DNA from: Octopus vulgaris
Lineage: Eukaryota
NCBI GenBank assembly: GCA_951406725.2
Contig: OX597820.1
Span: 75,268,001 to 75,332,000 of the forward strand
Direction: 5' to 3'
Length of the DNA stretch: 64,000 bases
Part shown: positions 1,636 through 4,077 of the stretch, piece by piece
How the letters are laid out: every line of letters begins with the position of its first letter
How positions within the stretch are numbered: position 1 is the stretch's first letter
Translations under genes and position numbers: made by a program
The notes under the pieces: model-generated
The model's input: the letters and a program-made list of their open reading frames with translations, nothing else
Told to the model about the DNA's origin: nothing
The model's database searches: none

Positions 1636-1835
1636 AACGAAACAAAGGAATTACTGATTAGGTTACATTTGACGGCATTGTACATATCTTATCTACATTC
1701 ATTAAAAAAAAATACAATTTCTTGTTAACTTTTCCATACTGATTACAGGAAACAACAGCAGATTTTGTCAGTTATACATTGTTCTTCATGCGTACTATCT
1801 GTCCCTCTATTTTACCTTCTACCTCCCTTCCTCTT

Positions 1836-1880
1836 TCTATACCTATCTATCTATCTTTCTATCTATCTATCTATCTATCC

Positions 1881-1924
<44 letters not shown>

Positions 1925-1964
1925 GTATATCTAGCTGTCTGTCTATCTATCCCTCTAGCTATCC

Positions 1965-2019
<55 letters not shown>

Positions 2020-2212
2020 GATCTATTTTCTATCTATACCTATCTATCCATCTATCTACGTATCTATCTACCTATCTCTTTATCTATCTATCTTTCAACC
2101 TACCTATCTATTTGTCTATTTTTCTGTCTATCTATCTCTTTATCTCTCTATCTCTCAATCTATCTATCTATCTATTTATCAATCTATATATATGTCTATC
2201 TATCTATCTCTA
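1836..2212. repeat. Interrupted (CTAT)n microsatellite
   Basis: Direct reading. Confidence 0.97.
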
Positions 2213-2334
2213 TGGATAGAATTGGTCACGACAGTGAACTTCCATCGAAAACTCATGGACATAGGTGACATAATAATCCAACTGCTTGTTTCTTGCACAA
2301 TCCTGTGCAATAAACTCGATCAAATAAGCCTAAC

Positions 2335-2690
2335 AACAGATATAGGAATTAGAATCTCCTCTGGTTCAACCCAATTTTCGCTTCGCATGTTTCAACCATG
2401 ATCGTTGGAAAATTTATTACCGCTTTGGACAAACGTTTTCCTAAATGTAATCGATGTCATGCTATTTTTAATCGGTACACCATAAAAGTATCCTACGCTA
2501 AATTAACTCTGCTAATTTAGACCAGCTTATGCTCCGCAAAAACAATTGTAAAATGCGACAAAGTTTCAATAACCCACCTACTAGATCTAGCGAACATACG
2601 CATCTAAATACCAAAGAAGGAGATGTAAAATGCAATGAAAAACACCAATTACCGCTAAGTTGTAATATTAGAAATGTTTATGAAACAGCT
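2335..2690 (+). mobile_element. Decayed Penelope-like element (Neptune-type) ORF fragment, RT thumb to GIY-YIG linker
   Basis: Translates as NLLWFNPIFASHVSTMIVGKFITALDKRFPKCNRCHAIFNRYTIKVSY, matching the PLE motif IIWFNPP...IGK.FL.L.DKHFP....L.KIFNR.T.KVSY; stops and frameshifts are present. Confidence 0.8.
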
Positions 2691-2699
2691 TCCTCGGTA

Positions 2700-2746
2700 A
2701 CAACTGATGAAGATTAAACGAATCTGAAATCAGCGGTGTTATGACT
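2700..2746 (+). ncRNA. Minimal type I hammerhead ribozyme motif, copy 1 (degenerate)
   Basis: CTGATGA(2704-2710)-AGATT/aaacg/AATCT stem II-GAAA-TCAGCGGTGTTA (decayed palindromic stem III). Confidence 0.65.
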
Positions 2747-3041
2747 CCATGTCACTTGTCGTAAGGAGGAAGCTTGTTTCTCTTGTCAATTGTTAGAATA
2801 CTGCTCTCACGTGACTAAGAGTTGTTCTGTCTCTTATTTCTAGCAATGATGATGCTCAGTAGCACCCTCCGTCAGTTTAGGGATGATTCTATCCGTTGCC
2901 TTTCGGTTGTTAACTGAGAATAGCTACCTGAATAATTTATAATTCTCACGTCACCATTTCGGAACTCATTATTTTCTATGGCAGTCTCTATAAGACTGAC
3001 AAGGTGAGATAAGTTCTTTAACCCTCGGTGATAAAGAAAAA

Positions 3042-3090
3042 GGTCCCTGATGAAGATTAATCTAATCTGAAATCGGCGCTGATATAATTC
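3042..3090 (+). ncRNA. Minimal type I hammerhead ribozyme motif, copy 2
   Basis: CTGATGA(3047-3053)-AGATTA/atc/TAATCT-GAAA-TCGGCGCTGA-TA; near-palindromic stem III, predicted AUA cleavage after 3084; stem I weak. Confidence 0.75.
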
Positions 3091-3460
3091 TATCTCGCTC
3101 GTCTTAGGAAGGGAGTTTGTCTCCCTTGTCAGTCATTAGAAAAGTAATTTCACGAAAATATATCCGACTTATAATATAAGCATTAATATTTAATGTTCCT
3201 CAACTTGCAACAGGCTCTCCTTTGAATTTACAACTGACTATACAATAATCTTTTAAAATATTCTCGAGGGAAAGAGTTCGTTGTGACAACCTACAGAATC
3301 TACGTTTATATATAATAGGGCACAGAAGAGGAAAATCTGCCAAGATTAAAATATTACTCTGTGTGTTGGACTTTCAAATAAATTCCCTTTCTTTTATTTG
3401 ATTTAATTTAATCCTCTTTTGTCAACATTTTTACAAATCAGTCAATATATTCTCCTTCTT

Positions 3461-4077
3461 AAGGCGGCGAGCTGGCAGAAACGTTAGCACGCTAGGCGAA
3501 ATGCTTAGCGGTATTTCGTCTGCCGTTACGTTCTGAGTTAAAATTCCACCAAGGTCAACTTTGCTTTTCATCCTTTCGAGGTCGATTAAATAAGTACCAA
3601 TTACGCACTGGAGTCGATATAATCGACTTAATCCGTTTGTCTGTCTTTGTTTGACCCTTCTGTGTGTAGCCCCTTGTGGGCAGTAAAGAAATAGGTATTT
3701 CGTCTGCCGCTACGTTATGAGTCCAAATTCCGACGAGGTCGACTTTGCCTTTCATCCTTTCGGGGTCGATAAATTAAGCACCAGTTATGCACTGGGGTCG
3801 ATTTAATCGACTTAATCCCTTTGTCTATCCTTGTTTGTCCCCCCTATGTTTAGCTCCTTGTGGGTAATAAAGAAATAAGAAACGTTAGCACGCCCGATGA
3901 AATGCTTAGCGATATTTTGTCTGTCTTTACGTTCTGAGTTCAAATTCCACCGAGCTCAACTTTACCTTTCACCCTTTCGGGGTCAGTATATTAAGTACCA
4001 GTTGCGTACTGGGGTCGACATAATCGACTAGCCCCTCCCCCAAAAGTTTGGGCCTTGTGCCTAGAATAGAAAACAAT
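3461..4077 (+). mobile_element. Trimeric tRNA-derived SINE, family B (Meta-domain-like core)
   Basis: Head ggcggcgagctggcagaaacgttagc, B-box gagttcaaattcc, three repeats of the core ttcatcctttcggggtcgataaattaagtaccag; two different tails. Confidence 0.9.

What the first reader, a model, noticed from the sequence alone, without database searches (positions are those of the whole stretch)
2692..3154. Two hammerhead ribozyme cores 343 nt apart downstream of a Penelope-like ORF: possible retrozyme/pLTR unit
Seen: CTGATGA-stem II-GAAA occurs at 2704 and 3047 inside a diverged direct repeat of about 110 bp. Stem II is kept in both copies (AGATT:AATCT and AGATTA:TAATCT) with different loops. Stem III reconstructs to the palindrome ATCAGCGCTGAT followed by A. 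Known: PLE terminal repeats carry minimal type I hammerheads with palindromic stem III that act as dimers, and tandem hammerhead units of a few hundred nt give circular retrozyme RNAs. Inference: the 343-nt interval is a self-excising unit of this family. These particular copies have a weak stem I and may be dead.
Basis: partly seen in the sequence, partly recalled or inferred. Interest (0 to 1): 0.75.

Follow-up and report, generated by a model that had tools for sequence, protein, structure and literature searches.

The report
Fossil hammerhead retrozyme with Penelope footprint
This is one old, broken copy of a scattered non-coding repeat that carries a predicted self-cutting RNA motif and was likely pasted around this animal genome by Penelope-type jumping genes; it belongs to a known kind of element, and the jumping-gene fragment beside it comes from a different family.

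Summary
The two hammerhead cores (2704, 3047; 108-nt repeat, 76%) are real. They are 1.3 laps of a dispersed, protein-free repeat family with a 347-nt unit (the window copy lost 4 nt). The family majority is a well-formed type I hammerhead: long stem I, palindromic stem III whose two central letters covary, AUA cut site. It folds as a strongly self-paired circle (z -8). Insertions show the Penelope-like-element (PLE) footprint: partial tandems, head-to-head inverted arms (24 of 90 loci), two preferred 3' ends 40-50 nt apart, TA-type microsatellite flanks. Copies read through the predicted cut site 95 times and start at it 3 times, which fits a circular or uncut template. The family looks extinct here (best copy 92.8% to majority), and both window hammerheads are broken in stem I. 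The upstream ORF piece is a Hydra-clade PLE. Its 29 other sampled copies continue into their own endonuclease and 3' end, so the repeat is not its pLTR. Verdict: new, fossil member of the metazoan non-LTR retrozymes. This scan already noted younger families of this kind, also in this genome. Cleavage, circles and the partner enzyme are untested.

The parts
1834..2214 (.). (TATC)n microsatellite at the truncated 5' end of the PLE piece
2218..2704 (+). 5'-truncated, broken piece of a Hydra-clade Penelope-like ORF (RT thumb to linker), cut off before its CxCx5C linker and GIY-YIG domain; a separate family from the repeat
   Evidence: translations; family copies; DKT, YRDD and CxCx5C motifs in other copies; 12.1% non-CpG divergence from its family majority
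2703..2704 (+). junction: 2 letters shared by the PLE piece and the repeat
2703..3154 (+). retrozyme-type repeat copy, 1.3 laps of the 347-nt unit, 84.6% to the family majority; it lacks the family's usual 3' end and TA flank
2704..2753 (+). hammerhead 1: core and stem II intact, stem III damaged, 5' strand of stem I absent; predicted cut after 2741; predicted inactive
2742..3084 (+). cut-to-cut monomer equivalent (343 nt here, 347 nt in the family); its circular fold is no longer better than shuffles (z -0.6)
2889..2901 (+). position matching the family's second preferred 3' end (unit 186-198); read through in this copy
2928..2951 (+). AU-rich stretch, predicted unpaired in the circle, holding the family's main 3' end (unit 232-241; window about 2941); read through in this copy
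2987..3140 (+). hammerhead 2 with its long stem I rod: core, stems II and III nearly intact (AUA triplet), proximal stem I mismatched; predicted cut after 3084; predicted inactive

Best explanation
The stretch is a decayed 1.3-lap copy of a dispersed, protein-free 347-nt repeat family carrying a type I hammerhead motif, which was likely spread by the enzymes of a TA-targeting Penelope-like retrotransposon, probably by copying a circular RNA. Shown: the dispersed family, the unit length, the lack of an ORF, the hammerhead fold with compensated changes, the insertion anatomy, the age, and the broken state of both window hammerheads. Inferred steps: (1) A tandem source copy was transcribed through two hammerheads. 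(2) Two hammerheads paired through the 12-nt palindrome and cut after AUA; a lone hammerhead is predicted to be blocked because its core pairs with the 5' half of the palindrome. (3) The monomer was closed into a circle, by a host RtcB-type ligase by analogy with PMC7229834. (4) A PLE endonuclease nicked (TA)n DNA and its RT primed in the unpaired AU-rich loops (unit 186-198 and 232-241), then ran round for 0.1 to 2.1 laps, often leaving two head-to-head arms, one ending at each site. The neighbouring Hydra-clade piece is a different family, joined here by a deletion or by a template switch. Odds: family identity about 0.9; PLE mobilisation about 0.85; circular rather than uncut linear template about 0.6.
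For: Dispersed family: 73 matches from 40 scored of 470 candidates; 1686 candidates with a better copy; 28 exact matches to a 30-letter core pattern against 0 for the reversed control. No ORF: longest stop-free frame 37 aa. Circular fold -114.4 against -79.8 +/- 4.3 kcal/mol in 60 shuffles, z -8.0. Two subfamilies differ at 16 sites, 6 of which form 3 compensated pairs; 137 of 200000 random draws reach 3. The central stem III letters covary, G..C 55 against T..A 14 of 97; they cannot pair in a monomer hairpin but keep the palindrome. Energies: blocked -17.5, active -11.9, palindrome duplex -19.5. Insertions: 25 head-to-head junctions in 24 of 90 loci; in 9 of the 25 one arm ends at 225-241 and the other at 186-198, and in 0 do both arms end in the same class (read). 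56 of 66 ends at 232-241 are followed by a microsatellite, against 666 of 3169 control positions. This matches the partial tandem, inverted copy and one-ended tail described for PLEs (PMC8557442). 95 crossings of the cut site against 3 of 127 segments starting there. The 238|239 lap junction is clean (1 gap opened in 56 passes). Laps of one insertion share subfamily alleles (0.72 against 0.51 in controls).
Against: No cleavage, circle or partner enzyme was observed. No autonomous PLE sharing the unit's ends was found: flank comparison and comparison with the Hydra 3' end (best E 0.66) were blank, and each search scored only 40 candidates. The same fold forms in a linear unit opened at the AU-rich loop, so structure does not prove a circle. 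Private variants shared between laps were not above control (29 against 21.7 +/- 4.3, control maximum 33). No A>G over T>C excess overall (263 of 7597 against 360 of 10568, p 0.84). The compensated pairs stem from one subfamily split, and one of the three involves CpG letters; two pairs alone are reached by 3303 of 200000 draws. The stem III covariation may be a single event. 55 of the 111 fetched loci were chosen by a 3'-end pattern or query; in loci not so chosen, 29 of 78 segments end at 225-241, 14 at 186-198 and 35 elsewhere. No segment has two intact hammerheads (21 of 91 spans intact). Rfam's hammerhead models do not score it.
Confidence: 0.7

Rival explanations
1. Same family and PLE mobilisation, but the template was an uncut linear tandem transcript, or a linear unit re-entered by template jumps as for PLE pseudo-LTRs. 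The hammerhead rarely cut during mobilisation.
For: Read-through of the cut site (95 against 3) fits this equally well. The monomer hammerhead is predicted blocked. PLE hammerheads cut weakly in vitro (PMC4209133), and 8 of 9 Xenopus dimers did not cut (bioRxiv 10.64898/2026.07.22.740005). No excess of private variants shared between laps.
Against: Only 5 of 127 segments hold two complete hammerhead spans and the longest is 2.14 laps, so long tandem source copies were not seen in the sample. Lap junctions are clean. The core, stems and palindrome were kept through a subfamily split, which argues that cutting mattered.
Confidence: 0.22
2. The repeat is the pseudo-LTR / 3' end of an autonomous PLE: either the ORF upstream or an unseen one.
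For: Same strand, direct junction and similar age (12.1% against 13.7% non-CpG divergence, p 0.48). Retrozymes resemble pLTRs in Xenopus.
Against: 0 of 29 other copies of this PLE carry the repeat. They have their own endonuclease, 3' end and a different hammerhead-like motif. Upstream of the hammerhead, repeat copies continue into the previous lap or stop, and no shared non-unit body was found.
Confidence: 0.05
3. A DNA-level tandem duplication or satellite with a chance resemblance to a hammerhead, or a locus-specific working ribozyme.
For: No Rfam hammerhead match. The locus is kept in two related runs.
Against: Dispersed copies with permuted ends, inverted arms and TA flanks. Complete core, three stems and compensated changes in the family. 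Both window copies are broken in stem I and their circular fold has decayed to z -0.6.
Confidence: 0.03

Closest known systems
Metazoan non-LTR retrozymes (Cervera & de la Pena 2020, PMC7229834; parts 2-4 of 6 read, supplement not read)
   Same: Non-coding unit of 170-400 nt (347 here; mussel 350-390), one type I hammerhead per unit, GC under 50% (43%), highly self-paired predicted circle, no LTR, coexisting PLEs.
   Different: Copies here are dispersed 0.1-2.1-lap insertions with inverted arms, two preferred ends and TA flanks rather than arrays. The monomer hammerhead is predicted blocked by self-pairing, whereas the paper says most metazoan circles leave it free. The family is old, and expression and cleavage are not shown.
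Retrozymes as non-autonomous PLE derivatives (Li, Clavereau & Pollet 2026, bioRxiv 10.64898/2026.07.22.740005; parts 1-3 of 5 read, supplements closed)
   Same: PLE link; monomer and dimer copies spread over chromosomes.
   Different: Their evidence is co-occurrence and pLTR similarity in 35 species without a mollusc. Here the link rests on insertion anatomy, and no pLTR homologue was found. By their rule (two consecutive intact hammerheads) no sampled copy is active.
PLE hammerheads in pLTRs (Cervera & de la Pena 2014, PMC4209133; parts 1-2 of 4 read)
   Same: Type I, palindromic helix III suited to dimers, a letter between position 9 and the G10.1-C11.1 pair, proposed circular template for more-than-unit copies.
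   Different: Not minimal: 4-bp helix III, helix I extended to about 50 bp, and no ORF between the hammerheads.
PLE insertion anatomy and the Hydra clade (Craig et al. 2021, PMC8557442; passages and the Hydra section read, supplements not read)
   Same: Partial tandems, inverted 5'-truncated copy, tail at one end only, (TA)n targets. The upstream ORF family has the Hydra marks DKT, CxCx5C, CxxC/CxH and no CCHH.
   Different: The tail here is 40-50 nt against the 30-40 described. The repeat encodes nothing and shares no sequence with the Hydra family's 3' end.

Membership tests
Non-LTR retrozyme | Head-to-tail unit of about 150-450 bp with one type I hammerhead per unit | tested here: met
   347-nt unit; 51 of 127 segments exceed one lap
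Non-LTR retrozyme | No protein-coding frame, no LTR | tested here: met
   longest stop-free frame 37 aa; no shared body beside the unit
Non-LTR retrozyme | Highly self-paired predicted circle | tested here: met
   z -8.0 for the family majority; z -0.6 for the window copy
Non-LTR retrozyme | Self-cleavage in vitro | not testable with these tools
   needs a transcription assay
Non-LTR retrozyme | Expressed as linear and circular RNA | tested here: inconclusive
   only contigs of runs guessed to be RNA were available; these cannot show circles, strand or level
Non-LTR retrozyme (active, as defined by Li et al. 2026) | Two consecutive units with complete hammerheads | tested here: not met
   0 of 127 segments hold two intact hammerheads; the window copy has none
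Type I hammerhead ribozyme | CUGANGA, GAAA, NUH and three helices closed by helix I | tested here: met
   family majority and 21 of 91 spans; not met in either window copy
Type I hammerhead ribozyme | Match to Rfam hammerhead models | tested here: not met
   no hammerhead family at E <= 10
Type I hammerhead ribozyme | Loop 1 / loop 2 tertiary contact | not testable with these tools
   a UA bulge in helix I is placed for it, but no test was possible
pLTR of the adjacent PLE | Other copies of the PLE end in this repeat | tested here: not met
   0 of 29
PLE-mobilised element | Partial tandem, inverted 5'-truncated arm, one-ended tail, microsatellite target | tested here: met
PLE-mobilised element | Identified autonomous partner sharing terminal sequence | tested here: inconclusive
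   none found, but only the top candidates were scored
Hydra-clade PLE (upstream piece) | DKT motif, CxCx5C linker, C-terminal GIY-YIG with CxxC/CxH and no CCHH, (TA)n 3' flank | tested here: met
   motifs read in other copies against PMC8557442; no tree was built, and Pfam gave no relevant match

The most novel reading that the evidence does not exclude
The window locus is a frozen template switch: one Hydra-clade RT copied the retrozyme circle past its cut site, then jumped at 2 shared letters onto Hydra RNA. That would name the enzyme that moves an animal retrozyme, and the covarying palindrome with a self-blocked monomer would be the switch that lets only dimers cut. It fits the same strand, the equal age (12.1% against 13.7%), the shared TA targeting, and a junction that is not a TA site. 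It is a single case, however, and the copy has also lost its 3' end, so a deletion that fused two neighbours explains it as well.
Probability: 0.2. Interest if true: 0.6.

Novelty: new member of a known kind. Interest (0 to 1): 0.3.

Why it matters
Which enzyme moves animal retrozymes, and whether it copies circles, is proposed but not shown in the papers read. This family adds footprint evidence for a PLE enzyme and a covarying palindrome that favours dimer cleavage. It is old and dead here, so younger families that this scan has already noted are better test systems. I found no cephalopod retrozyme in four literature searches; Repbase and Dfam could not be checked.

Tried and rejected
Rfam scans found no hammerhead family, only weak microsatellite miRNA and C/D-box look-alikes, taken as chance. 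Pfam found nothing relevant in the PLE pieces, and the Atlas look-up could not be run. I first read the upstream ORF as Neptune from memory and changed to Hydra after reading the clade's motifs. No RNA holder was listed for the window copy. Contigs of four runs guessed to be RNA matched parts of a better copy, with a depth peak at unit 110-154, but contigs cannot show strand, level or circles, so this was not used. Runs X2 and X3 did not cover 3166-3450; not interpreted. An editing signature (A>G over T>C) was sought and not found overall; three rod sites show about 25% A>G, unexplained. No pile-up of 5' ends at the cut site and no ligation scar were found. RNAalifold on 20 decayed copies recovered stems II, III and the distal rod but not proximal stem I, with a small covariation term (-0.53). 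No earlier finding matched by sequence. Duplicate loci were merged before counting (111 to 90); L090 and L091, a near-identical pair, stayed as two. The copy number is only bounded: 28 exact core matches at a hit rate of 8 of 37 in the best loci (0 of 8 in another set) gives at least about 130 hammerhead-bearing copies, and the first look gave 1686 candidates.

Full report
Observation. The window has exactly two CTGATGA-stem II-GAAA cores, at 2704 and 3047; 200 shuffles gave a mean of 0.03 comparable cores and never two. They lie in a 108-nt direct repeat of 76% identity, 343 apart. Rfam gave no hammerhead match here or in a better copy, so the identification rests on motif and fold.

The family. 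The window lies in a 2.8-Gb genome in 227 contigs. That it is a cephalopod is my recall from the SINE at 3477-4029, and agrees with wording in earlier scan notes. A search with 2640-3200 gave 73 matches from 40 scored of 470 candidates, at about 72-81% identity for the long matches. A better copy gave 1686 candidates, best non-self full-length match 88%. A 30-letter core pattern matched 28 places, its reversed control none. I fetched 111 loci, 90 after merging duplicates, holding 127 segments. The unit is 347 nt; the window copy lacks 4 nt. Of 90 segments over 150 nt the median identity to the majority is 86.3% and the best 92.8%; the window copy is 84.6%. There is no ORF (longest stop-free frame 37 aa). 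No young copy was seen, though each search scored only its top 40.

The ribozyme. The majority sequence has the full core, a 5-bp stem II, a 4-bp stem III inside the 12-nt palindrome, an AUA triplet, and a stem I that extends into a rod of about 50 bp. 21 of 91 complete spans keep the core and three stems; none of the 127 segments has two such. The cut-to-cut monomer folded as a circle gives -114.4 kcal/mol against -79.8 +/- 4.3 in 60 shuffles (z -8.0); the window's own monomer gives z -0.6. Two subfamilies differ at 16 sites, of which 71:309, 87:292 and 167:182 are compensated pairs; 137 of 200000 random draws reach three, but the third pair involves CpG letters and all come from one split. 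The two central letters of the palindrome covary (G..C 55, T..A 14, others 28 of 97). They cannot pair in a monomer hairpin, so the simplest reading is selection for pairing between two hammerheads; it may be one event. In a lone hammerhead the core is predicted to pair with the 5' half of the palindrome (-17.5 against -11.9 for the active fold), while two palindromes give a -19.5 duplex. A dimer-gated cut is therefore my inference, in line with dimer behaviour reported in PMC4209133 and PMC7229834.

The window copies. Hammerhead 1 has no 5' strand of stem I and a damaged stem III (duplex -6.7). Hammerhead 2 keeps stems II and III but is mismatched in proximal stem I. The copy stops at unit position 108 without the usual end or TA flank. 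Both hammerheads are predicted dead. Contigs of runs X2 and X3, labelled as other organisms but from one study, span the locus with 12 differences and 1 gap in about 556 nt, so the arrangement is real and much older than that split.

Insertion footprint. 3' ends cluster at unit 232-241 and 186-198. 56 of 66 ends at 232-241 are followed by a TA-type microsatellite, against 666 of 3169 control positions. Because 55 loci were chosen by their 3' end, I recounted in the others: 29 of 78 segments end at 225-241, 14 at 186-198 and 35 elsewhere. There are 25 head-to-head junctions in 24 of 90 loci; in 9 of them one arm ends at each site and in none do both end in the same class (read). Both sites are largely predicted unpaired in the circle. 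Partial tandems, an inverted 5'-truncated copy, a tail at one end only and (TA)n targets are the PLE marks described in PMC8557442. Copies cross the predicted cut site 95 times and start within 2 nt of it in 3 of 127 segments, about what a uniform spread gives. The 238|239 junction is clean. Laps and arms of one insertion share subfamily alleles above control (0.72 against 0.51; 0.82 against 0.49). Private variants are shared above control between inverted arms (26 against 10.4) but not between laps (29 against 21.7, control maximum 33). The template was thus continuous across the cut site, either a ligated circle or an uncut tandem transcript; these data do not separate the two. I favour the circle at about 0.6, by analogy with the circles shown for coral, mussel and axolotl.

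The upstream ORF. 2218-2704 is a broken piece of a PLE ORF from a large family (358 DNA candidates; 10764 protein candidates). None of 29 other copies carries the repeat within 1.5 kb. Most go on into a CxCx5C linker, a GIY-YIG domain with CxxC and CxH, their own 3' end with a different hammerhead-like motif, and (TA)n. With the DKT and YRDD motifs this fits the Hydra clade as described; no tree was built. Of 89 other repeat loci, one (L029) has a piece of this PLE about 570 nt away on the other strand and none is joined to it. The window piece matches its family up to 2704 and overlaps the repeat by 2 letters; the two parts are equally diverged (53 of 439 against 57 of 415 non-CpG sites, p 0.48). 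The repeat is thus not this PLE's pLTR. A deletion that fused neighbours is the plainer origin; a template switch is not excluded.

Comparison and novelty. It works like, and by the tested sequence features belongs to, the metazoan non-LTR retrozymes; cleavage and circular RNA, which also define them, were not testable. A PLE origin is already proposed (PMC7229834) and argued by phylogeny (2026 preprint). Four searches listed no cephalopod retrozyme; unread supplements, Repbase and Dfam may hold this family. The scan has 180 notes with these words, including younger families with the same two-armed anatomy in this genome; these are unchecked notes and I do not count them as support. One suggested an RNA-editing test, which was negative here.

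Verdict. A real, old, dead copy of a new family of a known kind. Interest 0.3.

Noticed in passing
3' end of the Hydra-clade family, e.g. L056:2796-3018, L053:2757-2984: A hammerhead-like motif with C in place of U4, a very long stem II insert and an 8-nt palindrome at stem III lies about 50 nt before the (TA)n end. Four of the sampled ends (L039, L051, L054, L057) run on into a shared extension (a tail).
   Followed up: partly
L025:25, L040, L046, L048: A third, minimal hammerhead family (core CTGACGA, short stem II) turns up by chance in four flanks, so it is probably very abundant in this genome.
   Followed up: no
window 3477-4029 and 162-255: Three tandem copies (spacing 184, 217) and one more diverged piece of a SINE-like repeat; recalled, not checked, as a common octopus SINE.
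   Followed up: no
L009/L012 (G000:C4:30141101-30141871): Two complete two-armed insertions face each other 3' to 3' as a large inverted duplication with near-identical short arms.
   Followed up: no
unit positions 292, 299, 309: About 25% A>G in subfamily A at three paired A's of the rod; two of them are fixed as G and compensated in subfamily B. Possibly old editing sites, but there is no overall A>G excess.
   Followed up: partly
L027:1585-1629 (unit about 110-154): Depth peak in contigs of all four runs guessed to be RNA, and in DNA runs at window 2788-2871; may mark a more abundant related family or one expressed copy.
   Followed up: no
L076 (G000:C14:18589239-18589562): Head-to-head arms both starting at unit 336, separated by a short (TA)n and identical over 57 sites despite the family's age; suggests conversion or hairpin repair.
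   Followed up: no
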